A stretch of 60,507 bases of DNA, the filler included, from Hausera hauseri (Eukaryota): the NCBI GenBank assembly GCA_046269625.1. It is 12 parts of 12 records of this genome, joined end to end, with 100 filler letters (N's around TTAATTAATTAA, not from the genome) between each part and the next. Parts side by side here need not be neighbours in the genome. Positions count along the whole stretch, not along the records: positions 34,324 to 38,515 come from JBJURY010709658.1; 11 more parts are not named here. The stretch is one strand, 5' to 3'. Below the pieces are notes generated by a model. The model saw only the letters and a program-made list of their open reading frames with translations, had not been told where the DNA came from and did not search any database. Shown here one piece after another: positions 3,606 through 43,610 of the stretch. The position numbers and the translations under genes are program-made. How positions within the stretch are numbered: position 1 is the stretch's first letter; the number at the start of each line of letters is the position of its first letter.

Positions 3606-3661
3606 GTACGGACGCTTTTGAATAATTCTTTTTTGTTTTGAAAAGTAATGTGCGATCTTTA

Positions 3662-3756
3662 ATCTGTGGATTTAAACAAACGGATTAAATCCACAGATCT
3701 TGATTGTTAATTAATTTTTTATTATTACAAGTGCTGGTTACTTCGGCACTTGTAAT
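3662..3756. other. Two adjacent hairpins (14-bp stem 3662-3675/3685-3698; 11-bp stem 3724-3734/3746-3756) in the putative 5' leader of element A
   Basis: ATCTGTGGATTTAA...TTAAATCCACAGAT and ATTACAAGTGC...GCACTTGTAAT are perfect inverted repeats. Confidence 0.8.
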
Positions 3757-4046
3757 CCTGATTTATTTTATGATTTAGTTTTAATATTTCAATTTATTTT
3801 GATTGAATCTGTTTTAGGAATTTGAGAAATTTTCATGTTTGGTGAATCCGTGATTTCGAATTTTGAGAAATTTAAATTTTGAGATTTTTGAATTTTAAAT
3901 TTTGATATTAGTAAAAAATTTTTTTTATTTTGCTGATTTGGTTTATCTTAAATGATCTGAATATAAATTTTAATATTTTTTAAGGTGAAACCTTATATAA
4001 ATTTTCTAAAACCATTTAAATTCCGCTTGATTTTGTAATTTTCTTC

Positions 4047-14707: not shown

Positions 14708-17700
14708 CGTGTTCGAAACTGGTTATCTCCAAAATTTTTTTCGACTCAACTCATTGCGGTGAGTCCGAATATGCACGTGTTCGAAACTGGTTATCTCCAA
14801 AATTTTTTTCGACTCAACTCATTGCGGTGAGTCCGAATATGCACGTGTTCGAAACTGGTTATCTCCAAAATTTTTTTCGACTCAACTCATTGCGGTGAGT
14901 CCGAATATGCACGTGTTCGATACTGGCTGTCTCCAAAATATTTTCCGACTCAACGCATTGCGGTGAAGCCGAATATGCAGACGTCAGGAACTAGTTGTCC
15001 CCATCATTTTTTCGACTGAAGCCATTAGTGTGAGTACGAATATGCACGTGTTCGAAACTGGTTATCTCCAAAATTTTTTCCGATTCAACTCATTGCGGTG
15101 CGGCCTAATGGGCAGGTTTTCGAAACTGGCTGTCTCCAAAATTTTTTCCGACTCAACTCATTGCGGTGAAGCCGAATATGGAGACGTCCGGAACTGGTTG
15201 TCTCCAAAATATTTTCCGACTCAACTCCTTGCAATGAATCCGAATATGCGGATGTCCAAAACTGTTTGCCTCCACAATTTTACCCCACACAACTCCTTGC
15301 GGTGAAGCCGAATATGCAGATATCAGGAACTAGTTGTCCCCATCATTTTTTCGACTGAAGCCATTGGTGTGAGTCAAAATATGCACGTCTTCGAAACGGG
15401 CTGTCTCCAAATATATTTTCGACTCAACTCATTGCGGTGCGGGCTAATGGGCACGTTTTCGAAACTGGCTGTCTGCAAAATTTTTTCCGACTCAATTCAT
15501 TGCGGAGAATACGAATATGCAGATGTCCGCAACACGTTGTCTCCGTAATTTTTTTGGCTGAAGCCATTGGTGTGAGTCAGAATATGCACGTGTTCGAAAC
15601 TGGTTGTGTCCAAAAGTTTTACCGTTTCAACTCACTGTGGTACGGCCTAATTGGTCAGATTTTCGAAACTGGCTGTCTCCAAAATTTTTTCCGACTGAAC
15701 TGATTGCGTTGAATCCGAATAAGCAGGTGTCCGCAGCTGGTTGGCTCCAAAATTTTGTCGCTTCAACACATTGCTGTGAAGCCAAATACGCAGACGTCCG
15801 AAACTAGTTGTCTCCAAAATTTTTTCCGACTCAACTCATTGCGGTGAATCCGAATACGCAGATGTCCGGAACTGCTTGTCTCCAAAATTTTTTCGACTGA
15901 AGGCATTGGTGTGAGTCCGAATATCCCTGTGTTCGAAACTGGCTGTCTCCAAAATTATTTTCGACTCAATTCATTTCAGGGAGTCCGAATATGCAGCATT
16001 TCGAAACTAGCTGTCTCCAAAATTTATTTCGACTCTTCTCATTGCGCTGAACCCGAGTGTGCAGGTGTTCCAAATTGGCTGTCTCCAACATTTTATCCGA
16101 CTCAACTCATTGCCGTGAATCCGAATAAGCAGGTGTCCGTAACTGGTGGTCTCCACAATTTTATGCGACTCAACTCATTGCGGTGAGGCCGAATATGCAG
16201 GTCTTCGAAAGTAGCTCTCGCCAAAATTTTTTTCGTTTCAACCCATTGCAGTCAAGCCGAATATGCAGATGTCCGGAACTGTTTGTCTGCAAAATTTTTT
16301 CCGACCCAATTCATTGCGGTGAGTCCGAATATGCGGGTGTTCGAAACTGACTGTCTCCATAATTTTTCGAATGAAGACATTGGTGTGAGTCCGAGTATGC
16401 ACGTGTTCAAAACTGGCTGTCTCCATAATTTTTTCGGCTAAAGTCATTGGTGTGAGTCCGAATATGCACGTGTTCGAAACTGGCTGTCTCCATAATTTCT
16501 TGACTGAAGCCATTGGTGTGAGTCCGAATATGCAAGTGTTCAAAACTGGCTGTATCCAAAATTTTTTTCGACTTAACTCATTGCGGTGAATCCGAATAAG
16601 CAGGTGTACGTAACTGGTTGGCTCCAAGACTTTGTCGCTTCAACACATTGAGATAAAGCCGAATATGCAGACGTCCGGAACTGGTTGCCTCCATAAATTT
16701 ATCCGACTCCACTCATTGCGATGAATCCGAATAAGCAGGTGTCCGTAACTGGTTGTCTCCACAATTTTTTTCGACTCAACTCATTGCGGTGAATCGGAAT
16801 AAGCAGATGTCCGGAACTGGTTGCCTCCATAATTTTATCCGACTCAACTCATTGCTGTGATTCCGAATATTCAGATGTCCGGAACTGCTTGTCTCCAAAA
16901 TTTTTTCGACTGAAGGCATTGGTGTGAGTCCGAATATCCCGGTGTTCGAAACTGGCTGTTTCCAAAATTATTTTCGACTCAATTCATTTCGGTGAGTCCG
17001 AATATGCAGCTTTTCAAAACTAGCTGTCTCCAAAATTTATTTTGACTCTTGTCATTGCGCTGAACACGAGTGTGCAGGTGTTCCAAATTGGCTGTCTCCA
17101 ACATTTTATCCGACTCAACTCATTGCCGTGAATCCGAATAAGCAGGTGTCCGTAACTGGTGGTCTCCACAATTTTATGCGACTCAACTCATTGCGGTGAG
17201 GCCGAATATGCAGGTCTTCGAAAGTAGCTCTCGCCAAAATTTTTTTCGTTTCAACCCATTGCAGTCAAGCCGAATATGCAGATGTCCGGAACTGTTTGTC
17301 TGCAAAATTTTTTCCGACCCAATTCATTGCGGTGAGTCCGAATATGCGGGTGTTCGAAACTGACTGTCTCCATAATTTTTTCGACTGAAGCCATTGGTGT
17401 GAGTCCGTATATGAAGGTGTTCGAAATTAACTGTTTCCAAAATTTTTTTCGACTCAACTAATTTCGGTGAATCCGAATAAGCAGGTGTCCATAACTGGTG
17501 GTCTACACAATTTTATCCGACAAAACTCATTAAGGTACGGTCGAATATGCAGGTCTTCGAAACGTGCTCTCTTCAAAATTATTTCCGTTTCAACCCATTG
17601 CAGTGAAGCCGAATACGCAGGTGTTCGGAACTGGTTGTCTCCAAAATTTTATCCGACTCAACTCATTGCGGTGAATCCGAATATGCAAATATCCGGAATT

Positions 17701-19875
17701 TGTGGCCTCCATAATTTTATCCGATTTAACTCCTTGCGGTGAATGCGAATATGCAGATGTACGAAACTGGTTGTCTCCATAATTTTTTCGACTGAAGCCA
17801 TTGGTCTGAGTCCGTATATGAAGGTGTTTGAAACTGGCTGTCTCCAAAATATTTTCCGACTCAACTCATTGCACTGAGCCCGTATATACAGGCGTTTCAA
17901 ACTAACTGTCTCCAACATTTTATCCGACTCAACTCATTGCGGTGAATCCGTATAAGCAGGTGTCCATAACTGGTGGTCTCCACAATTTTATCCGACTCAA
18001 CTCATTGCGGTGAATCCGAATATGCAGATGTCCGGAACTGTTTGTCTCCAAAATTTTTTCCAACTCAACTCATTGCGGTGAATCCGAATATACATATGTC
18101 CGGATCTGGTTGTCTACAAATATTTTTCGACTCAACTAATTGCGGTGAATCCGAATAAGCAGGTGTCCATAGCTGTTGGCCTACACAATTTTATCCGACA
18201 AAACTCATTGAGGTAAGGGCGAATATGCAGGTCTTCCAAACGTGTTCTCTCCAAAATTATTTCCGTTTCAACCCATTGCAGTGAAGCCGAATATGCAGAT
18301 GTCCGGAACTGTTTGTCTCCAAAATTTTTTCCGACCCAACTCATTGCGGTGAGTCCGAATATGCAGGTGTCCATAACTGGTGGTCTCCACAATTTTATCC
18401 GACTAAACTCATTGCGGTGAGGCCGAATATGCAGGTCTTTGAAACTATCTCTCTCCAAAATTTTTTTTATTTAAACCCATTGCAGTGAAACCAAATATGC
18501 AGATGTCCGGAACTGTTTGTCTCCAGAATTTTTTCAGACCCAAATCATTGCGGTGAGTACGACTATGCGGGTGTTCGAAACTGGCTGTCTCCATAATTTT
18601 TCAGACTGAAGCCATTGTGGTGAGCCGAATATGCAGGTGTTCGAAACGTGCTCTCTCCAAAATTTTTTTCGACTCAACTCATTGAGGTGTGGCCTAATTG
18701 GACAGGTGTTCGGAAATGGCTCTGTACAAAATTTTTTCCGACTCAACTCATTGCGGTGAATCCGAATATACAGATGTCCGGATCTGGTTGTCTACAAATA
18801 TTTTTCGACTCAACTAATTGCGGTAAATCCGAATAAGCAGGTGTCCATGACTGGTGGTCTCCACAATTTTATCCGACTAAATTCATTGCGGTGAGTCCGA
18901 ATAAGCAGGTGTCCATGACTGGTGGTCTCCACAATTTTATCCGACTAAACTCATTGCGGTGAGGGCGAATATGAAGGTTTTCGAAACGTGCTCTCTCCAA
19001 ATTTTTTTTCCTTTTCAACCCATTGCAGTGAAGCCAAATATGCAGATGTCCGGAACTGTTTGCCTCCAAAATTTTTTCCGACTCAACTCACTGCGGTGAA
19101 TCCGAATATGCAGATGTCCGGAACTGTTTGTCTCCAAAATTTTTTCCAACTCAACACATTGCGGTGAATCCGAAATACGCAGGTGTTCAAAACTGGCTGT
19201 CTTCAAAATTTATTTCGACTCAACTCATTTCGGTGAGTACGAATATGCAGGTGTTTGAAAGTGGCTGTCTCCGAAATTTATTTCAACTCAACTCATTGCG
19301 CTGAGCCAGTATATGCAGGCGTTCCAAACTGGCTGTCTCCAACATCTTATCCGACTCAACTTTTTGCGGTGAATCCGAATAAGCAGGTGTCCATGACTGG
19401 TGGTCTCCACAATTTTATACGACTAAATTCACTGCGGTGAGGCCGAATATGCAGGTATTCGAAACGTGCTCTCTCAAAAATTTATTGCGTTTCAACCCAT
19501 TGCAGTGAAGCCAAATATGCAGATGTCCGGAAATGTTTGTCTCTAAAATTTTTTCCGACTCAACTCACTGCGGTGAATCCGAATATGCAGATGTCCGGAA
19601 CTGTTTGTCTGCAAAATTTTTTCCAACTCAACTCATTGCGGTGAATCCGAATATACAGATATCCGGATCTGGTTGTCTACAAATATTTTTCGACTCAACT
19701 AATTGCGGTGAATCCGAATAAGCAGGTGTCCATAACTGGTGGCCTACACAATTTTATCCGACAAAACTTATTGAGGTAAGGGCGAATTTGCAGGTCTACC
19801 AAACGTGTTCTCTCCAAAATTATTTCCGTTTCAACCCATTGCAGTGAAGCCGAATATGCAGATGTCCGGAACTGT
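14708..19875. repeat. Tandem satellite, ~68-bp monomer, ~76 copies, fills the whole contig
   Basis: Unit CGTGTTCGAAACTGGTTATCTCCAAAATTTTTTTCGACTCAACTCATTGCGGTGAGTCCGAATATGCA recurs at 14708, 14776, 14844 and onward, with diverged variants and higher-order duplications. Confidence 0.97.
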
Positions 19876-20191
19876 NNNNNNNNNNNNNNNNNNNNNNNNN
19901 NNNNNNNNNNNNNNNNNNNTTAATTAATTAANNNNNNNNNNNNNNNNNNNNNNNNNNNNNNNNNNNNNNNNNNNNATTCAGTGGCACCGTTTGAAGCGGA
20001 AAACCATTTACGAATTGGCGATAGTTGTGACGATATTCCTTTTATTGATGATGATGCATGTTATACCGATTTTTTCTATGGTTATTCGAATTATAAGGTG
20101 TGGTTAATTAAACATCCACGACTCTCTAAATTTATTGACACATACAGAGCCCCGACCAGTCTGCAATGAACACTAGCCATCAGGAATTGGT

Positions 20192-20272
20192 TGTGGCGCC
20201 TACGCCGTCGGCTATGCTGCCCGAAGATAATCTGGTCGGAAACCTGGGCGCGTCCGTGATCCGTGCGCCACA
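20192..20272 (+). repeat. Putative 81-bp 5' LTR of element B
   Basis: GC-rich block bounded by TGTGGCGC...GCGCCACA. An unrelated ORF runs up to its left edge and the gag ATG follows 2 nt after its right edge. The partner LTR is not in the contig. Confidence 0.65.
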
Positions 20273-20274
20273 AT

Positions 20275-21470
20275 ATGCCTCTGGCATCACTCTTTAACCC
20301 CTTTCTTTTTTGTTTTTAAAAATAACACACATATTTCTACCATACACACTAGTAACATGGACCTTGCTTACACCCTCTGTATGTCTCTATCCTCTTTCTT
20401 ACACACTTCCGACATTTATTTTTCGCACCATGGTTTTGTGCTACAGCCGTCTGATTCACTTTCTTCCTTCGCTTCTCTAATCATTTATGTCTCCCTTTAC
20501 TTTCACATCCGGGGTGGTTCGGACCCTGATCCTTCTGCTGAAAATTCGGCCAAAAAAGATCTGGTCATTGCCCTGCTGACTGCACAATCTGCTTCTCCTA
20601 ACCTTTCTCGCACAGACTTCTTCCTCGATAAAACTAATTCAAGCCGCACTTGGCTACAATTTCATTTACAATGGCTTAAAGCCAATCAAATTACCGATTC
20701 TTGAGCGCCAAAAGCTTGTTACTTCTTCTCCCAGCAAATATCAAGCATAAAATCAATAATCTTGCTGATGTTCTTACTTCTCCAACATCATATGACATGC
20801 TTTACAAGTCTGTTCTTCATATTACCGATCCATCGATTGATAATATAATACAGAAGTACTTTAACGAACATGCTATAGGCAATCAAAAGCCTTCTGACTT
20901 TCTGCAGACCTCTGTTTCACACCTAAGTGCGCTTGGCGTTACCCCCACCAACAATGCGGACTTGATTCGTCGTTATTTCCTCTCCCCCTTACCCATTTCC
21001 ACCAGAGCTCTCCTTACTGTAGTTAACAACTCGACGGCGATTGAAAAACATGCCCTATTGGCTGATAAAAGTTTCGAAATCTTGCAAACTAACAACTCAC
21101 AACCCGTAGCTGCAGCAACGACGCATACCTCATCTCACATAGACATGACTGTTTTCGCACAGCAACTACAATTCATTCAGAAACAATACGATACTCTACA
21201 ACATTCAATTTCCGCCATCACGGCCCAACTAAATAATCTGTCTATGTCTCGGCGAGGTGAGACTCGTGCATCGCGTGAGCGTAGCCTCTCCAGGCACTCA
21301 TTTCGTTGTAAATCTCCTGGCGGACGAATGATTTGTTTTTATCACGAGATTTTTCGTAAAAGCGCAGAAAAATGTCTCTTGGGTTGTAGATTTTACGACG
21401 AGCGTTTTTTTCTCATCCTCCTTCTTCTTATCAGTCATCTTCTTTTCCTCCACAATTTTAAAAAAACTAA
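20275..21470 (+). pseudogene. gag: gag of element B with N-terminal ubiquitin-like domain (to 20518)
   Basis: ATG 20275 with a frameshift in a T-run, then FVFKNNTHISTIHTSNMDLAYTLCMSLSSFLHTSDIYFSHHGFVLQPSDSLSSFASLIIYVSLYFHIRGG, then capsid-like region (...YDML...IGNQKPSDFL...LIRRYFLSPLP) and CHCC knuckle. Confidence 0.8.
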
Positions 21471-21502
21471 AAAGGCCGCCAGATGCTACGGCACATTCTG
21501 GC
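21461..21502 (+). promoter_or_regulatory. Candidate -1 ribosomal frameshift signal at the gag-pol junction
   Basis: Slippery heptamer AAAAAAC directly followed by TAA, then a stem GCCAGATG...CATTCTGGC. Element A has AAAAAGC-TAA at the equivalent gag end. Confidence 0.55.
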
Positions 21503-24408
21503 ATTGGCAATACTGCTCAGTCTTCTGGCCGTCTTAACACCGCCTCCGCAGTTTTTCTGTTAAAAGCTATACTGTTCTCTAGAAATGCTCCACGTATCGA
21601 TTTCCTCATCGATTCAGGAGCTGCCTTTTCACTCCTCTTTTTGTTCTTCGTCTCTACATCAACGGCAGTTTCTTCTCCACCGCTTTTCACTGCCAGTGAT
21701 TAACCTTTGAGAATCGCAGGTACCACGGAACTGGTTTTTACATTTTCAAACTTACCAGGCTAGTTTGTCTGGAAATTCCACGTGGCCAATATTAAATCGC
21801 CAATAATCGGCTCAGATTTTTTGGCCGCACACCACCTGCTAGTTGACTGTAAGTATGGCTGTTTGCTACGTAGAGACACCGTCGTGAACGTTAACAATTG
21901 ACTAACACACAGCTCAACAGGCCAATCGTCTGCGAACTCACACGTGAATTTGGCAAATTGCTCGTCGGTTGATAACGATGTATTTAGTAGTTTATCTATT
22001 TTCTTAATTACAACTCAAATATCAAAGTCGATTTTAAAACAGTCGGTTAAACCGAATATTGACGGCGTTGACGTCGTTCATTCTTCGCCAATCACTGTCA
22101 CCGCCTCCTCTAATAATACGCCTCAATCATTTTTATCACTAGATTCCAATCTCAAATCCTACATTATTTCTTCTTGTTTTCGCATACTCAAAAAGGACTC
22201 TAGTTTTAAGCCACCATCAACAACTTATCACCACATTGTCACCCAACACCAAAAACCTATCAGACAAAAGGTGAGACCATTATCGCATCGTAGACGAAAA
22301 GCCGTGGAATTAGAGTTTAACGAACTCGAAAAATCTGGTATCATTCGGAGGTCCAAATCACCATGGGCTTCACCATTGCATGTAGTAGCACAAAAGGACG
22401 GTACTTTTCGACCATGTGGCGACTACCGTCAAGTAAACAATCTAACCATCATGGATGCTTACCCATTACAGCTCATAAAATACATCCTGCACAGTCTTAA
22501 CAACACCAATACGTATTACACAATAGATCTGCGTAAAGCCTACGATCAAATTCCCGTTGCACCCGATGACATTCCAAAGACTGCTGTAATCACTCTATTT
22601 GTCCTTTACGAATACATCTTTATGCCATTCGGTTTACGTAATGCAGCCCAAACTTTTCAACGCCACATCGACACCGTTTTTTCAGGCCTTGATTTTGATC
22701 ATCCTTATATCGATGACATATTAGTTGACTCCAATTCCATGAAACAACACCATGAATATCTCCAAATTATTTTTCACAGATTACATCATAGGAACTTACA
22801 AGTTAACGTCTCCAAGTGCAACTTCTTTCGGAAACGTGTCAATTTCTTAGGCCACATCATCACTACTCACGGCCACTCTCCACAACCTAATCGACTACAG
22901 CAATTGAAAAATGTAATATTACGAACGACTACTACAGATATAAGAAGTTTTCTTGGCACACTACATTTCGTTTACAAATACATACCGCATTGGTCTGAGC
23001 TTACAGCACCTTTCGCACACCTCTCATCTGGAAAGAAAAGACAGTTAGTCCAATGGACTCCCGATTTAATCATCAAATTCGATCACTTACATGAAGGCCT
23101 AAAAACCGTCGAAATACTGGCTATTCAAAACTCGACGCGGAGCTAATACTTACCACCGATGCCTCTACCACAGCTACTGGTGCAATACTACACCAGATTT
23201 CCAACGGTGTCGATGAACCTTTGGAATTTTAATCTCGAAAACTCACACAACCAAAAAGCCGGTATTCAACATTTGATCGTGAGCTATTAGCCATAGTTCT
23301 GGCAGTAAAACATTTTAAGCATCTTCTCCACTCTCGTCCATTTATCATCCAAACGGATCACAAGCCTCTGCAGCACATAATGTCACTAAAACAGCCATCA
23401 CCGAGGCAGAAACGACAGATATAGTACCTATCTACATTTAGTTTTGTCATAAAATATATTTCGAGTGCTGAGAATTTGGTCGTGGATTTCCTGTCGCGGT
23501 GGATCTGCTTAATTACGACTGAACCAATATTTTCTACCGAAATTCTAAAGCTTAATTAGCCGTCTGCTGATATTCTTAACTCTTTCAAATCCTTCGAAAT
23601 CATTGATGGCACTGCATGCGATACATCTAACACCGGTAAAAAAATCATTCTCGCTCCTTCTTTACAGAAACTAGCTTTCCTTCACACGCATTCACTTCAT
23701 CATCCAGGTTCAAAAGCCACGTTTCGCTTGCTCCAACGTCATACAGTTTGGCCATCAATGCGCACAGATGTACAGAATTGGGTTAATAAATGCGTCGCCT
23801 GTCAAAAATACATCTTAAACCGCCGCTTTACCATTTCCCATGTACATCACTTTTTCATACCGTCCATCTTGATCTCGTTGGACCCTTGCCTTTTGATAAC
23901 GGGTACCAACATATTCTCACTATGATGGATCGTGCTTATGGCTGGCCTGAAGCCGCTCCTCTCCGCTCAACAAACACTGATTCAGTAGCAGATGCCTTCA
24001 TTAAAATCTGAATCAGTCGTTTTGGATCCCCACGGTACATCATAACGGACCAAGGTCCGCAGTTTGAATCAGAACTCTTTAAATCGCTTGATAAACGCTT
24101 GGGGATATCACATTTCCATACAACACCGTATCATCCACAATCAAATGGCCTTCTTGAAAGGTTCCATCGAACAATGAAACTTTCTGTAAAAATTTTGGCA
24201 GACAATCATCGCAATTGGACGTCCATCCTACCGTTTGTTCTATTCGGGTGGCGCAACACTCCTTCCACCACCACGGGTTATGCTCCAGCCGAGGCACTTT
24301 TAAAACTCCAATACGGGCTCTGTTCGAACTTTCCGACCTCGACGAAAATTCGACAGACGAAAACATTCGCGCGGCACAGTCTCACTTTGTTGAGTTCAGC
24401 TCAGACTC
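21471..24408 (+). pseudogene. pol: pol of element B (PR-RT-RH-INT)
   Basis: ORFs 21944-23146, 23728-24011 and 24099 onward, plus intervening stop-interrupted frames. Confidence 0.95.
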
Positions 24409-25309: not shown

Positions 25310-26456
25310 AATGAACACGCAAATGTTGGAAGAAGAATTGATTGTCGCAGCAACGCAATTGGAATAGAAACCAAAAGGAAATACCAGAAAGCAATCAGAT
25401 TTCGATTTGGACAACGCTCAGATCAGTCCAGAGGACAGTGCCATATTCAGAAGGAAGCAAATTGGACAATGCAGAAGGTAAATGGGACAAATTGAACAAA
25501 CCGAAGGACAGTTCCAAAGAAGAAAATTCAATTGTCCAAAAAGTGCGCAAAGATCTTGCACTCAGTCAAGATTCCAGTGATAAATACTTGTCGGACACAA
25601 GTTAGGTAATAGTCAAGTGGAATCAGGCACGTCAAATGTCTAATCATATGAAGAAAATTGCCACGGAAATAAAAGAAAACACAAAGGTCATCAAAAGGCC
25701 ACTAGGTACAGAAATGGGGAAGCCTAGGGGAACAAAGCGGAGGCTAGAGCTATTAGTCAAAGCTTTAGAAGGAGACTATTCAGATGACACTAGATAGGTA
25801 TGCCAGACAAAATGAGAGAAATAATAGAAATAACGATCGGAATGATCGCAACGATAGAAACAGAAATGATAATCGTAACCGAGATAATAGGCGATTTAAT
25901 AACAGTAATAAAAGTTAAAATAATAGAAACGAGAACTGTAATAATGATAGTAGAAGCAACCCATACGATAATAAAAATTACGCTAATAACCGAAGTGAGA
26001 ATAATTCGACTAGTAAATCAAACTATAATGCAGGTAGGAATCAAAATAGTTATTGAGGCTCAGGTAATAGAAATCTGTGTAATGATAACAAAAATAACGA
26101 GAGCCGACATAATTGGGATAATAGACAAGTTCAGTCGAGTCAGAACAATAATAGAAATGAGTAGATCGAAGTCGCCTTTAAATTAAGATGGTCGACCTAG
26201 AATCGGCAGGAATGTGAATTTAATCTGCTATAAATGTGGTCAAGGACATATAGCGAGACCATGCCCAGACCCGCGAAGTGTTTCGTTTGTTAAATCTAGT
26301 AAAAGCAGTTTAATTATAACTAATAGGAATTTAGAAGAAACCTACGACATCCATGGTGATACAGGTATGGTTGTTGGAATACAGTATTTACGACGGTTTA
26401 TAAAAAGTCAAGGCGACACAAACAATTCAAAAGTTTTAATAACTAGAAACGAATGA
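25310..26456 (+). pseudogene. Highly decayed gag-like remnant of another LTR element (Asn/Arg/Asp-rich region and CCHC knuckle)
   Basis: NRNNDRNDRNDRNRNDNRNRD low-complexity run followed by CYKCGQ-GHIARPCP at about 26226-26267. Confidence 0.55.
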
Positions 26457-32004: not shown

Positions 32005-32882
32005 TGTTACGTATCGCCAGTGGAAGGCGCTAACTTAGATCCGTCCTTATGTTCAGGACAAAATTAATTAAATCTCTTTCGAGTTATTGTCTCGGAGTAA
32101 TTTCCTTTTAATTAACTGTAAATTGACAGAAGCGATTGCATAGTTATTGTTCTATTTGATGATTAATCTATGTAATAATTGTTGTGTTTTGTTTTCCTTT
32201 TTATCTCAATGTACTATGTACAACCTGATTACACTCACAAAAATAAATATTTGCAGATATTGTCGTGCTTGAATAATAAAGGAAGTTTCGCCGTTCTTTA
32301 AAAATTGGTCTTAGTAACCTGCTTGCTTGAAAATTCAACTAGTGTGGTATAATTATTGTTCTGTTTTGTTTTTTTTTAGACTGTAATTGTCGGTTTTATT
32401 TGGAAGGGTAAATATTAAAGCCATTAAAATTAGTTAACTAAAAATCGACTGATTGATTGGGTCTGGGAGTGGACCATTCGGCGAACGTCTACCTCTAGCA
32501 CCCTTGTCTTGTTAAATTTGTGTGTTGATAAACTTTAATTACAAAGGAAAGAAAAGACAATAAAACTAAATCGGCTATTTCTTGGGGAAATTCCGTTGCA
32601 GGCGTAAATCAAGGACTAGCAGAGTTAACTGTTTCATTTTTTATTAAAAAAGACATTTCCGAGCAGCTTGGATATAGCCTTCGTAAAACACTGCAATTGC
32701 TTAGGATGCCCTCCGTTTTCTGAAATAGTTCTTGTGATTGTGGAGGGTCTTGAGTTAGTTGATTTGAGAGTCCTTCGATAGATTTTCGTTGAATAAAAAT
32801 TGACTACGTTAATAAATTATTTCCGTAAATCGTGATTAAACCAAAAGAGACATTGTGCAATAAATAACTGTTTAAAGCAACA
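32005..32882 (+). repeat. Putative 5' LTR (~878 bp) of a gypsy element
   Basis: TGTTAC...GCAACA termini with internal AATAAA, followed within 6 nt by a PBS and then gag. The left boundary is less certain than the right. Confidence 0.55.
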
Positions 32883-32888
32883 TAAATT

Positions 32889-32899
32889 TGGTGACCACG
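32889..32899 (+). promoter_or_regulatory. Primer-binding site, tRNA-Trp-like
   Basis: TGGTGACCACG versus the canonical Trp PBS TGGTGACCCCG, just after the LTR-terminal CA. Confidence 0.65.
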
Positions 32900-33060
32900 C
32901 CAGGGCCCGATTTTCGTGTTTAAAAATTTTTGGTCTGGCTATTAAGCTGAATAAGTTATTAGACGAGAAGATAGTTGTAAGCGAAAACACTATAAGAAAA
33001 GTTATTGAGTATAGTGTTGTCACACCTACAGAAGAGTTTAAACATTCGCAAGTGAAGAGA

Positions 33061-34223
33061 ATGTCCACATTTGCAAACCTAAATTTAGGACGCTACTGGG
33101 AAGAAACTACGGAGTTTGATGATTTTATGTTAGTATACGCGGCACAAGCAGACGGACTAGAATGGAACGATAAGGAGAAAATTAAGTGTCTAGTCGCACA
33201 TTTGGAAGAAATCGCGTTACAAGCTTACTTGCAAATTGAGGAGAAAGAGAAAATGAATTGGGCCAAATTTGTCGATGTACTTAGAAGAAACTTGCATCCT
33301 GACCCATCCTCCAATGCAAAACTAAGAAGTGTACTGTCTAGAGTCCAACTACCTGGAGAGTCAGTTAATAAATTTGCTTTTGCCCTTCAACTACTTGGTA
33401 AACGATATAAGGAGGCATTGGAGAAGGAAGATACTGCGAGAAATGATAAAGGTGCACCTAAGGTTTTTGCAATGCAGCCAATTTTGATAGATTGCTTTAT
33501 CACTAGACGTACTAGTTCTAAACTGCAAAGACAACTAATTGAAAGTTAAATCACCACAATAAGTGACTTAATTAGAAAAGCTATTAACTTTGAAAATGTG
33601 GAAAATAAATTTAACCAAATAAATCAAAAATCATTAAATAATAATCAAATTTCAAGAAATAATTTTAAACCTCAAAATTCAAACAGAAATTTTAGGCCAA
33701 ATAACCAAATGTGGCAAACGCCATCGTGGTCATATGGACAGGCCGGTTGGCAAGTGCCACCCCGTTGGAATGTTGATACGAACCATAATGTTAATCAAAA
33801 TTTGTTTCCTAATATTGACCCAAATAGCGTAAAATCACCTGGCGGAGCAAATCTACAACCACAAAGAATGGGCACCCCTATTAAAGACATGACTGCTGGA
33901 GCAAATCTGAACAGAACACAATGGATCAACCCTCCAGATCAGCAAAAACGATATCCTCTCCGATCACAAACTATGCGGCAACAAGCAATGGCATTAGAAA
34001 GAGATAAAGTCAACTACAGAGGATCAATCCAGTGTAACCAATGCAAGGAATTTGGACATATTGCCAAGTCTTGCCCAGAAGTTAAAAGAATGCCGGTATT
34101 AATGCCACCTTATATTCAACAACCTAAGCAGTGCAATATTTGTGCACAATGGGGAAATGTATCTCTAAACTGTCCAACCCAGGTAAGTATGATGAATGAA
34201 AATAAGTTTTGCTATCATTGCAA
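33061..34223 (+). pseudogene. gag: Ty3/gypsy gag (retrotransposon capsid domain and up to three CCHC knuckles), truncated by contig end
   Basis: W.D.EK...HL...A...W..F...L...RVQLPGESVNKFAFAL; CNQCKEFGHIAKSC, CNICAQWGNVSLNC, CYHC. One in-frame stop at 33547. Confidence 0.9.
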
Positions 34224-34323: not shown

Positions 34324-36209
34324 TAGGCAAACGATATAGAGGTGCGTTTATCTTTGAATTTTCTGCACATGGATTACGTAACAACCGCATAATCCTAGCT
34401 ATTGCCTTAATTCTTTTTGGTTTTGCGGTTCCATGCAATCTGATATTTTATTTAGTAATGATTTATCCGGTCTCGATCTTCTTTCTCCAACTATATGGCC
34501 AAGGTAGGATATAGCATTCTGAACCAATTTGCATTTCCTTGGATTTAATTTCAATCCGGCTTGTTCCAGACGCATTAGCGTGTGTGCAATATCCTTTAAG
34601 TGTTCCTCGTCGGTTTTTGACGCTATCATTACGTCGTCTAAGTACGCAAAAGAGTGATCCAATCCCATTAACATTTTATTCATCATCCTTGTAAATATGG
34701 CTGGCCCGGTAGTAATCCCAAACGGCATGACGTTGAATTCATATACACCATTGTATGTCTTAAATGCTGTCTTATATCGGTCTTCATCTTCAATTTCCAC
34801 TTGGCGATATCTGCATTGTAAGTCCAGAGTAGTAAACTATTTTGCTCCTGAGAGTCTATTTAAGGCTTCTTTTACTGATGGCAATGGGAAAGAGTCTTTC
34901 ATCATAAGATTGTTTAGAGCCCTGTAATAAATAAAAAATCGATGTATTGTGGTACCTTTCTTCTTAACCATGAGGATTGGCGAATACCATGATCTGTAGC
35001 TGGGTCTGATTATATCGGCCTTAAGCATTCGTGCGACTTCCTTTGTTATCTCAGGTCTTAACGAATGTGGCGGAGGATACCATTTCGGCATCTTTTGATC
35101 CTCAGGGTCTATTTCTTCATTCGAACCTGGCTTTTTCTTTAGAGGGATAATTAACTTTAGTGCTTTCGCTCTACCAATATCTTTGTCGTCTTTAGCGACG
35201 ATTGATTTATAATGACACAACAATTCGTAAAATCGACAATAAGACTCGGGGGAAAACTTAGTTTCGACATGCGGTGGAAATTCAGCATACTTGTAAGGCT
35301 TCTCTTTAATAGTTATCGACGACACTCTATACGTATCTCCCAGAGTAGTATAAGCATGGAGTTTAATGGGGATCGGTGTATTGTTAGCTATTCTAATTGG
35401 CACACAACCGGAGTGTACTCTTGTCAGTATGTTACTACGTATTATATTTGGATTTAATGTTTCTCTTGGTTCAAAATATACTGGTTGATCGTCATCTTGC
35501 TGAATTTGGGCGTAAATTATTAACTCTGTCCTCGGTGGAATATCCTTATCTACTAGTATCCACATCTCTCCAAATTTTTTATCCTTGGCATTTTTCACGC
35601 CTTTATTTGGTCTGATTTCTATCAATTTTCCTGTTTGCAAGTCAATTGCTATATTCGGTAGTCTTTTCAGTAGGTCACATCCTAAAACTATGTCGTCAGT
35701 TAATTGTTCCATAATTGCATATTCATGATGGAAAAACTGTCCAATTATTCGAACTTCTGGATTCCATTTAAACATGGGTTTTGACATTTGGCCAAAAGCT
35801 CCCGTANNNNNNNNNNTTTTGCGGACGGTGGGTATAATTTTCCTCTCAGCGTTTTAGGAATTGAGACGTTTTTTATGTAAGACATCTCGGATCTTGTATC
35901 GATTAATGCGTAAACTTCCCAATTTTCAATAATGATTTTGGCGAAGCGTTTTCCTTCTATTACTGTACCCAAGCATTTCAATGTATCCTTTGAACGTTTT
36001 ACTGCCGATATTTTATGTCCACTGATTCGGATCTCGGGGGAGGATATCACGTTCTCCGATAATTGTCTCAATTCTTCATTTGGATATAATTCGTTGTTTT
36101 CTATATGGAACTCTGCTGTCTCGTGTGTACTAACTAATGGTTCTCGATTATTAGTATGCAATTCGTCATTTTGAAATGTTTTCAGCCTTGGATTGTCCCA
36201 TGCCGCTGC
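34324..36209 (-). pseudogene. pol: Ty3/gypsy pol 5' part (protease, spacer, RT), element D
   Basis: YALIDTRSEMSYI and DIVLGCDLL (aspartic protease); SWYSPILMVKKK, YRALN, KDSFPLP, KTAFKT...YEFNVMPFG, AYLDDVMI (RT). Confidence 0.93.
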
Positions 36210-36358
36210 CTAATCTCTATGTTTTTAGGCTCTCTTGGAGAATATAGCATCTTGGGCCCGTCTGTAGATTGTCGGTAGCACATTTGCCGTAGGATCCCGT
36301 ATAGTTTCGTTCCTTCATAAGGGTTTTCTATATTAATTGTTCTTTTATAAACTTCTGT

Positions 36359-38511
36359 CTAATATGAACTCATTGATTGTTTGCCACAGTCGTCATAAGT
36401 TGGAGCGGTAGGAGGTAACATAGGTAGTGGTGCTTTAATAACAGAATACACTTTATATCTATTTATTCCTGAAAGTACTTCTCCTCCCTTAGGCTCGTCA
36501 TCGTCTGAATCATTTCTTCGCGTTTTATACTTTGTAATTTTCCGCTTCTGCAAAAATATAGGTCTTCTTCTTCGTTTACCATTGTAATATCCGACATGCT
36601 GTTCTACCTCTGATTTCCATCTGTTTCCTTCGTATGCCTTTAAGAATTTTTAAAGGGTGTTATGATCGCAGTCAGTATCTTGCAAGAAAATCCAGTCAAC
36701 GTAAATATTTCATACCCATTACTTACGGCTTGGATGACTGCTTTGATCATTTGTATCAAAAAATATATCACTAAAAACCCGGATGCCGCTTGTCCGAAAA
36801 TTAAGAATCTTCCCCAAATTTTGTAGAGTATTTCCACGGTTGCTCGCTGGTAGTGATTTACGCCAAGTAAAGATTCCCATTTAGCGATGTATTGTGTATA
36901 ATCTACTACAGAAGCCATAGCTCGATTTAACTCATGTGTTCGCTGTCGTGGAAAGGCCAGAAATTGTCTAATAGTCTCAACTCCTTTGATCTATATATAC
37001 CTTTCGATGAGGTATCTTGAAATTTACCGTCCGTAATTCCCTTACCGAGATTTGGCCCTGTCAATTTATTTGGAGCGGCAATAATACCTCCATTGGGCGG
37101 ACTGACCCAGTCTGTGTCACTACGTCTAAACATGGGTTCTCCTAAGCACGCTTTACAATTTTTAAGGATAGTTGGTTGAGTAGCGTTACCCAGTAACACT
37201 TTTGTCAGCGGTGTCGCTAATCTTGAAATATTTTGGTAAATAAATGGAAGTTTCTGAATGCAACTTTTTTCTTCCACGTTGATGGGTAAGTCTGTTTTTT
37301 CGCATTCATAGGTTAGCAATACTTCGCCTGTAACCTGACCTAAAATTCCTTCTTTCATGGGAATTATCGGAGAAGCCAGTTCTGGGTTTGCATATATTAG
37401 AGGCATTTTCGTTCTGATGATTTCGGTATCTTATTTGCCGTCATTCATTATCATTTTGTGATATAATTCCCTTATTCCAACTTGTCCTTTATAGTAGAAG
37501 TAATCATCTCTATTTTTTAGGTAATCCTCGATAGGTACATCCTGTGTTTCTAGCTTAAACGTTTTTGTACTTATTTCCATTCCTGCTACGAAAAACGCCT
37601 CATAGTTTGTAGCAAACATTACTACATCGCAGCGAGAAATCATCTCTTTTTTTATAAATTTCAATCCATGCTGATCCGAAATTAATATAGTAGGTGTAGA
37701 ATGTGCTGATACATCCTCTGGTGTCCTTGAATTGGTCTCTGATTTGTCCACATATCGTTTCCCTGTAGTCTCATTGAACTTTAGTTCTTTAATTTTAATA
37801 AAATTACAATTTTTTCCAGAGGGAGGTTCCCATATTATAACCGAACTTCTAAAGGTACAGGTCCCGTCTTGTAAATGACATTTTTGATTCTCTGTATACA
37901 GTTTGGTGACACTATGGAACATTACCTTCTGTGATCGCATTTCTGATTCGTAAAAATCCACAACTACTACGTTTGCATCCAATCCTTTCCCGGTGTCGTA
38001 TTCTGCTCCATTACAATGTCCGCTGTGCATATCCAGTCTTCCGGCCACTATTTTGTATGCCCTGATTATTTTACCTTGCTGCATCTCTAATTGCATACTA
38101 CCCGTTATATTCTTCCAGATTCCTTGGCTTGCTTGCAGTGTTGGCGTTCTAAATTCATTGGAATTAATGAAGTCGTTGGTTTAATTATAGATGAGTGTCC
38201 ATGAACCAACCCACAGTGAAAAATGCTACCTGATCGCCTCAGAATACATTCCATTCCATCGAGCGATATCAATTCTTGTTGCTGATACAGGAAATAATTT
38301 TTCTCTTTTGCTTCTAACTTGTGTGGTCTGGCATGTCACATATTTCTAGATCCATTAGGGAATATCTCTGTCCTAGTTTAAACTTATCTCAATCGTAGAC
38401 AGTTACAGCGCTTATATACATAACTAGCATCATTAAGGTGAGTAGGCTAATTAGCAAATTTGATTCATTTTTCCGGCATATAATATCTGCTGTTGTTAAA
38501 TTACGTAACAT
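36359..38511 (-). pseudogene. env: Chuvirus-type (Jingchuvirales-like, class III gB-related) fusion glycoprotein / env, full length but decayed
   Basis: Signal-like LLISLLTLMMLVMYISA, then VTVYD*(C)...YSLMDLEIC, ECILRRSGSIFHCG..HGHSS, CHLQDGTC..IIW, GQVTGEVLLTYEC, CIQKLPF..N..LATPLTKVL, SKGIY, TM region FLIFGQAASGFLVIYFLIQMIKAVIQAVSNGYEIFTLTGFS, and a basic tail. This motif order matches chuviral G as I know it. Confidence 0.85.
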
Positions 38512-38615
38512 ATCGNNNNNNNNNNNNNNNNNNNNNNNNNNNNNNNNNNNNNNNNNNNNTTAATTAATTAANNNNNNNNNNNNNNNNNNNNNNNNNNNNN
38601 NNNNNNNNNNNNNNN

Positions 38616-41600
38616 AAATCCAATCAATCTATCAACTTCCTTATTGACCCAGGGGCTGCTGTTTCTTTGTTACACCATTCATCCAAAACCATCCATTTCA
38701 CTATTTAATACCAAATTGCATAAAGCTAACGGCCAAGAATTACCCATTTTTGGTAGGTCTAAGATCTCATTCACTTTACCAGCATTCCCTGACAGTTTCA
38801 ATTGGACTTTCATTGTTGCGGACGCAATCTCCAATACTTGGGTCTGATTTTTTATCTTTCTACAACCTCCTTGTAGATAGTAGACAACGTCAAATCATTA
38901 AAAACAGTTCAACAAAGCCGACCTCTACAAATAACCAACCAACCATGCAACCTATCTTGACTATAAAATCAATATTAAAGAAAGCATCAACCAATGTGAA
39001 TAAAAACCTAATAAATATCAATGTAAACAATCCTACGTTTCTGTTGAAGTCTAATTTATGCGGCCCGATTTTTACAGTTTCTTACACTAAGTCCATTCAA
39101 GCCACTGCTGTGACAAAAATAGCCTTTACTATGCTTGGCCAAAAAATGCAACAATATTTAACCAAGTCGTATTTTCATACAATATAAAAAGACCCAACAT
39201 TTCCACCGGTCAACACGGCATTTCATCATATCAACACAGAAAATCGTATGCCCCTTAGGCAGTCCAAGCGGAATTCTCTGCACTCGAGCAAGCTGACGTA
39301 ATAAAACGCTTAAAATCACCGTGGGCATCACTACTCCACGTCATTCCAAAAAGTTGGCACATTCCGTCCATGCGGCGATTATCGCCAACTTAATAACGTC
39401 ACTACGATGGATGCTTATCCTATACCTTTGATTAAGGATATATTACATTTTTTACACAAAACCACAATTTATTCGACTATAGATCTCAAAAAAGCCTACC
39501 ACCAAATACCGATAGTACCCGAAGACATAAAAAAACGGCCATAATAACACCTTTTGGTCTTCTCGAATAGGCATTCATATCCATCCGTTTAAAGAATGCA
39601 GCACAAACTTTTCAGCGATGCATTAATTCAGTCCTTTCAGGTTTGCCACTTGTACATCCGTACATTGATGATATACTAGTGGCATCGACATCACCCAAAC
39701 AACACGAAGAACATCTTGGACTGGTTTTCCAACGCTTACACAATTGCAATTTGCAAATTAACTTTTCTAAGTGTTCCTTCTTTCAAAAAAGGTTAATTTC
39801 CTTGGCCACGTCATCACACCTGATGGTCAAAGCCCACAACCTGATAGGATTCACCAACTACGAAATATCAAGCTACCAAAAACTACAACTGGCATGCGTA
39901 TTTTCCTCGTGACTTTACATTTTGTTCATAAATACGTCCCACACTGTAGCTAGTTAACTGCTCCTTTCGCTCAACTAGGAGCAGGGACGAAGAACAAACT
40001 TATATATTGGACGCCAGAATTTGTAAACCAGTTTGATGAACTTCGCGACAAGCTTAAAACAGTTGAAATCTTAGCTTACCCAAAACTCGATGCCTACTTC
40101 ATCTTAACAACCGATGCATCAACCACAGCCGTAGGAGTGGTTCTTCATCAAATATCTTAAGGTATAAATAAGCCACTAGAATTCTTTTTACGTAAGCTTC
40201 AGCCACAAGAACGCCGTTATTCCAACTTCGATAGAGAACTTCTGGCCATCGTCTTAGCTCTTAAACATTTTTCACACTTACTGATCGCTCAATCCTTCAG
40301 CATTCAAACGGACCACAAACCTCTCTTTCACGTAATGAACATGAAACAACCATCACTCCGACAAGAACGCCATATCTCATATCTGTCAACATTTAACTTC
40401 AAAATTTGCCATATTTCTGGCACAGACAATTTAATAGCTGATTTCCTATCACGGTCAGTTGGAGCAATTAGCGTCACACCAATTTTCTCAAAGGACCAGT
40501 TAATCCAAAATCCGCCTTCCAATGAAATTCTGAAACAATAAAAATCAGTAAAAATCATCGATGGAATAGCCATGGATACTTCGACACCTGGACATTTGCC
40601 AAGTTTGGCTCCTCCTCTCCAACAAACTGCATTTCAACATGTCCATTCTTTGCATCACCCAGGTTCCAAGGCTACATTCCGCCTTCTCAAACGCCACGTA
40701 ACATGGCCATCAATGAGATCTGATGTACAGAGCTGGGTTAGGCAATGTGTAGCTTGCCAAAAGTTCAAAGTAGCTAAATATCTTAAACCACCATTATTCC
40801 ATTTTCAATGTACATTCCGCTTTGAGTCAGTTCACATAGATATTGTTGGCCCATTACTATCCGATAACGGCCACAAATTCATCTTAGCAAAGATAGACCG
40901 CGCGTCTTGTTGGCCGGAAGCCATTTATTTTCACTCCATCAATATAGACTCCATTGCAACGCATTTATTAGGATTTGGATTAGCCGGTTCGGTACACCTC
41001 GCTATATAATTTTAGACCAAGGTCCTGAATTTGAATAGAACCTATTCAAATCTTTAGTTAATCGATTAGGCATAAATCACATAGACACAATTCCATATCA
41101 TTTCCAGTCGAACTGCTTATTAGAACGCTTTCATCGTACTCTCAAGATCTCATTAAAAATCCTGGCCGAAACTCATAAGAATGAGTGGCGCAATACGCCG
41201 TCTACTAGCACCGGTTGCGCATCCGCTGAAGCACTTTTCGGTACCACAATTTGCACACTTTTTGAACTCACCGATTTGGACAACACACCAACTGACGAAA
41301 CAATTAAGTCTGCACAAAATCACTTCGTTCAGCTAAGCTAGGATTCTTTCTGCAAAATAGTACATGAAGACAAAACATACTTACATGACTCACTATACAA
41401 TGCAAAGTTCGTGTGGTTAAAAAACCATTCACCCTCCGGTTTCCAACCAAACTGCTTAGGAAAATTTAAAGTCCTCAACGTTACCTCACACATAGTTACG
41501 ATATTAAAAAATGATAAGGAACAAAACGTTCACATAACTAACGTGAAACCTGTATTTTTTGTTTTTGATACACCAGACTGTTCAGCTGAGCTTTCAAAAA

Positions 41601-41988
41601 CCTTTCTCGACTCCTTCAATTCTTCCTCTGTTCTACTTCCACGACAATCTGCTACTTTAAGACCTGCATCAACTCAATACACTACACTAAATGACATACC
41701 GGCCAGTTCTCAAGCTGCTGACATGTCCAATCAAAACCTAACTTCATCTCAATCATATCAATAAACAATTAAATAGCACGTTAAGCAAAGCAAGACGGTT
41801 ACCTTTAGCAAATACAGTACAGAAAAAAATACGGATAAAATTTAACGTCTTGTCCATACAAAGACCCATCAGTTCGCTTACACTGTTGTCTCTTTATTTT
41901 TTCCTTTCTACATTTTTATCTTCTTACAGCGTCTTTTTCGTAATGGGAGGGGGAGTAGTGTGGTGCCGCGGGCTCGGGTGCCTCCACA
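38616..41988 (+). mobile_element. pol: Ty3/gypsy LTR retrotransposon, CsRN1/Kabuki-like lineage (element C): decayed pol, PPT and 3' LTR
   Basis: NFLIDPGAAVSL, LHKANG, SPWAS, RPCGDYR, HPYIDDIL, TDAS, FDRELLAI, HHPGSKAT...CVAC, HIDIVGP, LERFHRTLK. Collinear with element B. Confidence 0.95.
41945..41988 (+). repeat. Polypurine tract (41945-41958) and putative 30-bp 3' LTR (41959-41988)
   Basis: GGGAGGGGGAGTAG followed by TGTGGTGCCGCGGGCTCGGGTGCCTCCACA; ends resemble those of the element B LTR. Confidence 0.65.
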
Positions 41989-42713
41989 ATTCAACTTGCT
42001 GATTTACAGACATTTGCCCTAGAAGACGGTTTCCTTCTAAGTCATCAATTGTCATTTCGTTAAAATTCCGCGACACTTAAAATTAGCAGATATTTGAAAT
42101 TGATTAAAGTTAATATTTCAAGTATAACGATCGAATAGACAAAAAATAGCATAGGTAGAGTGCCGGTGAAATTTACTGAAAGGTTCGACATTCAAGCAGA
42201 ACTGAAATTTCTCAAATCGATAATACTTCCTACTGAAGCCCGGGATCTTTTTTTGGTCGTGGCATACATCTGCCGAGATCTCATGCGACGAATAAATGAA
42301 AGTTCGAAAACCAAACTGCTGGCTCATCAAAGAAAAAGGAAAACTCTTTTCTCCTGGAAACGCCTAGGAGATTTCAACGTACAACAAGTGTCAGAAATTA
42401 TGAAAACAAACAAATTGTATTAGACGTATTTTGATTTGATGATTTGGTTGATCAGAAACAAATTTTGTTCACTTGTCAATATAAAGAAAACATGAATCAA
42501 TCAAAACCTCATGTTACGGAAATAATCAATCAAATCGATCAAATAATAACACCAGTTGTTCAATCAATCCTAAAGACCGATTTAAATCATTGGCCTACAA
42601 CCAATCCCATTGATGTTATAGTCCGAAATATCGTTGTGGAATTGCAAACAGACTTCAACGAAATGAAATTTAATTTTCGTTTACAGGAATTCTTCCAAGA
42701 TTTGCCAATATAA
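41989..42713 (+). pseudogene. Decayed ORFan interrupted at its 5' side by element C
   Basis: The frame of ORF 42160-42423 extends back to 41989 with only two stops (IQLADLQTFALEDGFLL...) and continues into 42444-42713; AATAAA follows at about 42756. Confidence 0.5.
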
Positions 42714-43214
42714 AGACAACGTCAACGTTTTGTTTTCAATGGTTAGTTTGAACAATAATAAAATACAAAATCAATAACCGTTCATTCATTACTGTTTGTG
42801 AATCATAAAGTCCAGATAACGCAACTGGAGATTTAAATGTGACAGCTTTTCTCAATTGTTCTCACTTGTATAAACGATTTATAGAAGTTTCTATACCTCT
42901 ATCAGATGCCAGTATTTTCAATGATCTGATGTTATTTTTTATCATGTATGTTCTACAAACAAATATCAATGCCCAATAAGCTGAATTATTAATTTACATT
43001 TTGTGTAAGGTGTGTGAGTTATCAGAAACAATAAGTTATAAAAAATTGATTATTGTTATTGAAGTTTTTGATTTGAATTTTGAAAAAAATAATAAATCTT
43101 ATTATCGTTGTGATTAGCCTTTCGTGGTTTTATAATATGTATATCGTAACTGAGACTGATTTGGAATTTTATATCTCCGTTATGTACATACATAACAATA
43201 ACGCATAATCATAA

Positions 43215-43610
43215 CATGCTGTCTCAGCAGGATCAGAAAAGGTAATAAAATACATTGACAGTAACTATGACATGGACAACCTACGAGAAGCACTCCAGAG
43301 AGTTTTTCGACATTGCGAAGCTTGTCAGCGAAGCAAAGCCTTGACAACGAGCACAAAGGAAGAAACAGTGAACCTATCAGCAAAAGAGCCATTCGAGAAA
43401 GTATACATAGATACATGTGAACCAATAAAGGAGACATGGAGAAAAAAGGTACATTTTAGCAATAATAGATCAGTACAGTAGATACCTAAGCCTAATTGCT
43501 ATACCGAGGCAAGATGGAGCAACCGTCAATGCAGAAACAGAAAAGAAATGGATCCTCAAATACGGAGCACTAAAAGAAATACATACAGACTGCAGGAAAG
43601 CATTTGAGAC
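43215..43610 (+). pseudogene. Ty3/gypsy integrase fragment (Zn-binding region and start of catalytic core)
   Basis: AGSEKV...CEACQRSK...EPFEKVYID, then YILAIIDQYSRY...WILKYGALKEIHTD. Confidence 0.88.

What the first reader, a model, noticed from the sequence alone, without database searches (positions are those of the whole stretch)
34324..38515. Gypsy element with a chuvirus-type fusogen placed before protease-RT (env-pol order)
Seen, within one contig on one strand: signal peptide, ectodomain, TM and tail of a chuviral-like G (38511-36359). Overlapping open frames (36358-36183 and from 36209) then lead straight into the aspartic protease and RT. There is no LTR, PPT, PBS or Gag domain in between. 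Known: env-bearing LTR elements normally have gag-pol-env, and chuviral glycoproteins have been captured by BEL/Pao elements in mosquitoes. Inference: an invertebrate endogenous retrovirus with a rearranged genome, possibly an Env-Pol polyprotein that tethers Pol to the membrane until protease release.
Basis: partly seen in the sequence, partly recalled or inferred. Interest (0 to 1): 0.85.

Follow-up and report, generated by a model that had tools for sequence, protein, structure and literature searches.

The report
Decayed retroelement, envelope before polymerase
This is a broken copy of a retrovirus-like jumping gene whose membrane-fusion (envelope) gene sits in front of its protease and reverse transcriptase, likely once read as one long protein, a gene order already described in flatworms, nematodes and bryozoans.

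Summary
The env-before-pol order is real, not a chimera, and already described. The 4.2-kb contig holds a decayed chuvirus/herpes-gB-type fusogen (Pfam PF24664; fold hits chuvirus G and gB) followed by a Ty3/gypsy protease and RT. Env and pol point to the same lineage: 11 of 18 scanned env relatives carry env and protease in one ORF and none has RT before env; the window's pol groups with them (97/93 in one tree, 84 in another, unresolved on RT alone). The linker is as open as env (2 breaks in 233 codons; shuffles 8.4), so one Gag-Env-Pro-Pol ORF is likely, though one stop in it is unexplained. Gag is probably just beyond the contig edge, which lies 4 nt before the env ATG. Chary and Hayashi (eLife 2026) report GAG-ENV-POL gypsy elements with gB-type env in nematodes, bryozoans and flatworms; by eye the env is closest to their planarian set. 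This scan noted the same order before on other DNA. New member of a known kind. A lead in relatives only: 7 of 8 carry a second signal/membrane cassette after integrase.

The parts
38317..38511 (-). Env start: hydrophobic signal sequence and first ectodomain residues; in-frame stop at 38391-38389; contig edge 4 nt upstream
   Evidence: aligns to internal positions of relatives' polyproteins
38108..38335 (-). Env ectodomain piece, separate frame
   Evidence: PF24664 positions 55-120, E 5e-5; BLAST to env polyproteins E 7e-12
36930..38180 (-). Main class III fusogen ectodomain piece, stop at 37433-37431 read as X (P0001)
   Evidence: PF24664 E 2e-19; model pLDDT 81.7; chuvirus G E 1e-15; herpes gB E 3e-4
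36643..36990 (-). Env membrane-proximal part, transmembrane helix (about 36807-36733) and a weaker second hydrophobic stretch
   Evidence: PF24664 E 2e-14; 35% identical to P0076; hydropathy 1.95 and 1.52
36185..36649 (-). Tail/linker, first part: basic stretch, a PTAP motif at 36412-36401 (late-domain reading is recalled), in-frame stop at 36361-36359, frame continues to 36185
   Evidence: no Pfam family; no Gag or protease profile match
35946..36209 (-). Linker, second part, open frame running into the protease
   Evidence: openness test
35650..35945 (-). Aspartic protease, active-site motif degenerate in this copy, interrupted by a 10-N gap at 35807-35816
   Evidence: Profile of 28 protease-like domains of relatives matches both halves, E 0.012 and 8e-6
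34324..35649 (-). Protease-RT spacer and Ty3/gypsy reverse transcriptase (Pfam match about 34968-34489), stop at 34839-34837, cut off by the contig end
   Evidence: RVT_1 E 6e-32; best BLAST matches are Env-Pol polyproteins; trees

Best explanation
The contig is the middle of a dead, mutation-riddled copy of a Ty3/gypsy element in which a chuvirus/gB-type fusion gene lies directly before protease and RT, likely the remains of one Gag-Env-Pro-Pol reading frame whose Gag would lie beyond the contig edge. Shown: the domain order, the decay, the multi-copy family in one public run, and single-ORF polyproteins of this order in the closest relatives. Inferred mechanism: the ribosome makes Gag in the cytosol; the hydrophobic stretch before the ectodomain acts as an internal signal and is cut by signal peptidase; the fusogen ectodomain enters the ER; its transmembrane helix stops transfer, so tail, protease, RT, RNase H and integrase stay cytosolic and bound to Env. 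Gag and Pol would thus both be brought to the budding membrane by Env, and clustering would let the protease dimerise and free the enzymes. The fusogen would carry particles into other cells, as Env does for Drosophila gypsy. This copy cannot do any of this.
For: Env. Relatives: of 18 env hits scanned (the top 13 of 121, plus 5 more of 578 aa or longer), 11 have env then protease in one protein, 5 also RT, 0 have RT before env; four more full Env-PR-RT-RH-IN proteins came from cluster members and a third search (P0197, P0201, P0204, P0205). CCHC knuckles precede env in 7 of 19 proteins listed. Pol, searched independently of env, scores best on four Env-Pol polyproteins (259-249 bits) above all 72 pol-search hits (best 231), and groups with six of them plus P0003 at 97/93. 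Linker: 2 breaks in 233 codons (0.86 per 100) against 0.81 for env and a shuffled mean of 8.4, 0 of 500 as low. Run X1: 13,737 contigs laid at 80% or more, all 30 bins covered; one contig spans 36107-36422 with 2 differences; other copies differ in length at or within about 10 nt of 4 of the 5 frame changes outside the N gap, including the one between tail frame and pol frame. Literature: PMC13524379.
Against: The stop at 36361-36359 is not among the 40 differences shown of 1,083, so it is not shown to be private to this copy. The RT-only tree left the window unplaced; the mixture-model tree gave 84; the window's branch is long in all three; P0003 has no env in its ORF and was added to the group after seeing the first trees. 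The TM-to-protease distance (296 codons) exceeds most relatives (122-243; one about 370). Depth in X1 is lowest at 36144-36283 (381 against about 2,000-46,000), and no listed contig of a diverged copy spans the whole junction; X1 may be the source data. The linker has almost no similarity to relatives. Relatives are only 24-30% identical in env. Gag and LTRs are not on the contig. Topology and processing are untested.
Confidence: 0.8

Rival explanations
1. Same gag-env-pol element, but env and pol are separate ORFs in this family: the stop at 36361-36359 is genuine and Pol is made by readthrough, splicing or its own start, which would also set the Gag:Pol ratio.
For: The stop follows a proline-rich motif and a tail of a length like stand-alone env/G proteins (about 80-150 aa after the TM motif); two relatives end 55 and 62 aa after that motif (P0094, P0080); the paper writes of three ORFs; X1 depth dips just downstream.
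Against: The frame stays open after the stop (1 break in 136 codons; shuffles 4.5, 2 of 500 as low); break density equals that of env; 11 of 18 relatives have no stop there.
Confidence: 0.13
2. Chance junction: a deletion, nested insertion or misassembly joined env of one element to pol of another.
For: Fragmented, transposon-rich assembly with an N gap in the contig; lowest X1 depth in the linker; linker longer than in most relatives.
Against: Env and pol independently pick the same polyproteins; the linker is open like coding sequence; an X1 contig spans 36107-36422; the N gap lies inside the protease, whose halves fit one profile.
Confidence: 0.04
3. ENV-GAG-POL order with a short, unrecognised Gag in the linker, as reported for two oribatid mites.
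For: The order exists; the linker is about 100 codons longer than in most relatives.
Against: The six mite rows seen have F-type env; no Gag match in the linker by Pfam or by a profile that finds the neighbouring contig's Gag at E 6e-26; relatives carry Gag marks before env.
Confidence: 0.03

Closest known systems
GAG-ENV-POL 'ancient errantiviruses' with HSV/gB-type env, planarian set Smed_errantivirus_1-6 (Chary and Hayashi, eLife 2026, PMC13524379)
   Same: Ty3/gypsy pol, gB-type env, env before pol, many copies. By eye, the eight cysteines of env domains I-II (window 38248, 38215, 38137, 38015, 37880, 37859, 37808, 37631) and their neighbouring residues follow the six Platyhelminthes_C1a rows of supplementary file 2, and not the ten nematode rows or the one bryozoan row seen.
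   Different: This copy is decayed and cut off, without gag or LTRs; host unknown. The main text never uses 'polyprotein', 'single ORF' or 'in-frame'; figures and the GitHub sequences were not seen and may show it. The match to the planarian rows was not computed.
Nematode non-canonical endogenous retroviruses (Sacco et al. 2022, J Gen Virol 103:1739)
   Same: Env before pol in a metavirus (as cited in PMC13524379). Recalled, not read: described as one continuous gag-env-pro-pol ORF.
   Different: Nematode env domains I-II seen are shorter (203-210 aa against 246-261 in the planarian rows) and look unlike this one. Paper not held.
Mosquito BEL/Pao elements with chuvirus glycoprotein (Dezordi et al. 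2020, PMC7642597; search listing only) and chuvirus G
   Same: Same fusogen family (PF24664; BFVD best hits are chu-like virus glycoproteins).
   Different: BEL/Pao pol rather than Ty3/gypsy; viral G is a stand-alone protein of an RNA virus.
Herpesvirus glycoprotein B (class III fusogen)
   Same: Nearly all listed PDB fold matches are gB, best E 2.7e-4.
   Different: 8-12% identity, TM-score about 0.24 on a partial monomer model; gB needs partner proteins.

Membership tests
GAG-ENV-POL gB-type errantivirus (PMC13524379) | Ty3/gypsy pol | tested here: met
   RVT_1; closest pols have PR-RT-RH-IN order; no GyDB profile test and no copia/BEL outgroup were run
GAG-ENV-POL gB-type errantivirus (PMC13524379) | HSV/gB-type env: signal, cysteine-rich ectodomain, transmembrane helix | tested here: met
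GAG-ENV-POL gB-type errantivirus (PMC13524379) | Env before pol, same strand, within 2 kb | tested here: met
   TM motif to protease motif 296 codons
GAG-ENV-POL gB-type errantivirus (PMC13524379) | Gag upstream of env | not testable with these tools
   Contig starts 4 nt before env; no genome held. Met in relatives; a matching but unlinked Gag lies on the neighbouring contig
GAG-ENV-POL gB-type errantivirus (PMC13524379) | LTRs and PBS; RNase H and integrase | not testable with these tools
   Contig is cut at both ends
GAG-ENV-POL gB-type errantivirus (PMC13524379) | Multiple genomic copies | tested here: met
   13,737 contigs of one run laid along the whole stretch, most at 80-95% identity; one run, depth is no copy number
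GAG-ENV-POL gB-type errantivirus (PMC13524379) | Intact ORFs (the paper's criterion for listing a copy, not for the lineage) | tested here: not met
   Stops and frame changes throughout: a dead copy
Single-ORF Gag-Env-Pro-Pol polyprotein (relatives P0076 etc.; nematode elements as recalled) | No conserved stop between env and protease | tested here: inconclusive
   Met in 11 of 18 relatives; in this copy 2 breaks at background decay rate; stop at 36361-36359 unresolved
Planarian C1a env group | Cysteine layout of domains I-II and placement in the paper's RT clade | tested here: inconclusive
   Cysteine order matches by eye; the paper's sequences were not in any alignment or tree here
ENV-GAG-POL elements of oribatid mites | F-type env and Gag between env and pol | tested here: not met

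The most novel reading that the evidence does not exclude
This lineage makes its whole particle from one membrane-threaded polyprotein, Gag-gB-protease(s)-RT-RNase H-integrase-second surface protein: the signal/membrane cassette after integrase in 7 of 8 relatives (Ig domain in one) is an attachment partner for the gB-type fusogen, giving a two-glycoprotein retroelement processed like an alphavirus or flavivirus polyprotein. Not found in the main text of PMC13524379; not testable on this contig, which ends in RT.
Probability: 0.3. Interest if true: 0.65.

Novelty: new member of a known kind. Interest (0 to 1): 0.3.

Why it matters
The order itself is published, so this copy adds one more, broken, example from a divergent branch. 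What is worth keeping is the anatomy of the relatives: a single ORF that threads a class III fusogen through the ER between Gag and Pol raises testable questions on how such elements set their Gag:Pol ratio and time protease activation, and the cassette after integrase is a candidate for the entry partner that the eLife paper says is unknown for gB-type elements.

Tried and rejected
No genome is held for the window. Word-index search of the env piece against longer proteins found nothing, while the full HMMER search found the polyproteins: the blank was a sensitivity limit. ESM Atlas gave only scores of 0.80 or less. DNA loci of relatives: none in metagenome contigs or genome contigs, so LTRs and ORF continuity of relatives were not checked on DNA. 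No RNA holder listed. RT-only tree did not place the window. No extra protease-like domain and no Gag in the linker. Sacco et al. 2022 not held (searches found only the citing paper). 'gag-env-pol' with 'retrotransposon' returned only PMC13524379; the planarian searches and the Oikopleura Tor search gave listings that I did not read further. PMC12440569 (Troyka): abstract only, not used. Cluster look-ups gave no eukaryotic host names; P0076 is labelled as a Flavobacteriaceae MAG protein, most likely an animal contig in a bacterial bin. No earlier notes for this genome or by sequence. A complex prediction was not run, as no binding claim is made.

Full report
What is there. The window is 12 short contigs joined by N spacers; the finding is one of them, 34324-38515. 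On its minus strand lie, in order, a hydrophobic signal, a cysteine-rich ectodomain, a transmembrane helix, a linker, an aspartic protease and a reverse transcriptase. Three env pieces match PF24664 and the pol piece RVT_1. A model of the largest env piece (mean pLDDT 81.7) matches chu-like virus glycoproteins best among viral models (E 1e-15) and herpesvirus gB among solved structures (best E 2.7e-4, low TM-scores).

Is the junction real? Env and pol were searched separately. The env piece found 121 proteins at E 0.001 or better. Of 18 scanned (the top 13 plus five others of 578 aa or more; short fragments were left out), 11 hold env then protease in one protein, 5 also RT, none RT before env; two of the 11 protease matches are below Pfam's cut-off; of the other seven, three end within the ectodomain and two shortly after the TM motif. 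Four more Env-PR-RT-RH-IN proteins of 2,974-4,844 aa turned up. These are predicted proteins; I could not fetch their DNA, but P0076 carries a bacterial-type annotation on a 9,084-nt contig, which makes a spliced gene model unlikely. The window's pol scores best on four of these polyproteins, above the 72 hits of its own search. Trees: RT alone, 79 rows, window unplaced; protease to RT, 31 rows (6 polyproteins, the 24 best of 72 other pols), window with the polyproteins and P0003 at SH-aLRT 84 in a quick mixture-model tree and 97/93 under LG+G4. The window's branch is long each time. In one public run, 13,737 contigs lie along the whole stretch, mostly 80-95% alike, and one spans 36107-36422 with 2 differences; the run may be the source data, and depth is lowest in the linker. 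Together this makes a chance junction unlikely.

One ORF or two? The least number of breaks needed to cross the linker is 2 in 233 codons, the rate seen in env (5 in 620), against 8.4 in shuffles (0 of 500 as low); after the stop alone, 1 in 136 codons (2 of 500). Other copies differ in length at or near 4 of the 5 frame changes, including the one between tail frame and pol frame, as expected if these are decay of this copy. The stop at 36361-36359 is not among the 40 of 1,083 differences shown, so it stays open. The linker (296 codons from TM motif to protease motif) is longer than in most relatives (122-243, one about 370), holds no Gag or second protease, and has no LTR-like repeat or outstanding purine tract.

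Where is Gag? Seven of 19 relatives listed carry CCHC knuckles before env in the same ORF, and the window's first env residues align to internal positions of such proteins. Gag therefore probably lies beyond the contig edge. The neighbouring contig ends in a Gag that matches a profile of these relatives' Gag at E 6e-26, while another element's Gag in the window scores 0.18; it is not physically linked.

How it likely worked (inference). One polyprotein: cytosolic Gag, internal signal, luminal fusogen, one stop-transfer helix, cytosolic protease and Pol. The second hydrophobic stretch after the helix is weaker (1.52 against 1.95) and is read as membrane-associated, since a second crossing would put the enzymes in the lumen. 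Env would gather Gag and Pol at the budding membrane and protease dimerisation would release them. How the Gag:Pol ratio is set is unknown.

Comparison with what is known. Chary and Hayashi (PMC13524379; I read the abstract, the first parts of sections 5, 6 and 9, section 14, passages, and rows of four supplementary tables; no figures) state that elements of Nematoda, Bryozoa and Platyhelminthes carry only gB-type env and are arranged GAG-ENV-POL, in several clades, following Sacco et al. 2022 for nematodes. Schmidtea families reach 215 intact copies. By eye the window's env follows the six planarian rows cysteine for cysteine and differs from the nematode and bryozoan rows seen; the host may be a flatworm, which is not shown. 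The eLife text does not mention a polyprotein; I recall that Sacco et al. describe a continuous gag-env-pro-pol ORF, but the paper is not held.

Lead in relatives. Of 8 proteins that run well past integrase (P0200 dropped as a near-copy of P0201, P0093 as truncated; P0003 included though it has no env in its ORF), 7 have one or two strongly hydrophobic segments after it, against 0 of 18 other pols in which the integrase motif was found (71 examined; tail lengths not matched). P0205 has an Ig domain there. These tails are barely alike by BLAST. Several relatives also carry 2-5 protease-like motifs. None of this can be tested on the window's contig.

Verdict. Real, correctly described, largely correctly interpreted, but a decayed new member of a published kind. 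Interest 0.3.

Noticed in passing
window 32836-34223 (+), neighbouring contig: Broken Gag with Retrotrans_gag and zinc knuckles running off the contig end; best matches are the Gag parts of the Gag-Env polyproteins. May belong to the same family; not linked.
   Followed up: partly
relatives P0076, P0077, P0087, P0197, P0201, P0205, P0003: Signal-like and transmembrane segments after integrase in the same ORF, with an Ig domain in P0205: a possible second surface protein.
   Followed up: partly
relatives P0077, P0082, P0083, P0086, P0088, P0197, P0201, P0204: Two to five aspartic-protease-like motifs per polyprotein, some after integrase; C2H2 fingers and ankyrin repeats between them in some.
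   Followed up: partly
P0076 (HBK71150.1): A 2,627-aa Gag-Env-Pol polyprotein annotated as a Flavobacteriaceae MAG protein, most likely an animal contig in a bacterial bin.
   Followed up: no
P0080: Weak Bcl-2 match (E 0.001, below cut-off) at the N-terminus of an env protein.
   Followed up: no
window 14708-19875: Whole contig is a diverged 68-bp tandem repeat, 73 copies.
   Followed up: no
window 1-4046 (-), 19976-24408 (+), 38616-43610 (+): Three other decayed Ty3/gypsy gag-pol elements; the two RTs put in the tree group together, apart from the finding.
   Followed up: partly
window 8495-9196 (-): Open frame with a MATH/TRAF domain (E 1e-12).
   Followed up: no
window 26151-26336 (+): Weak match to the Gag profile (E 0.001): possibly another Gag remnant.
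   Followed up: no
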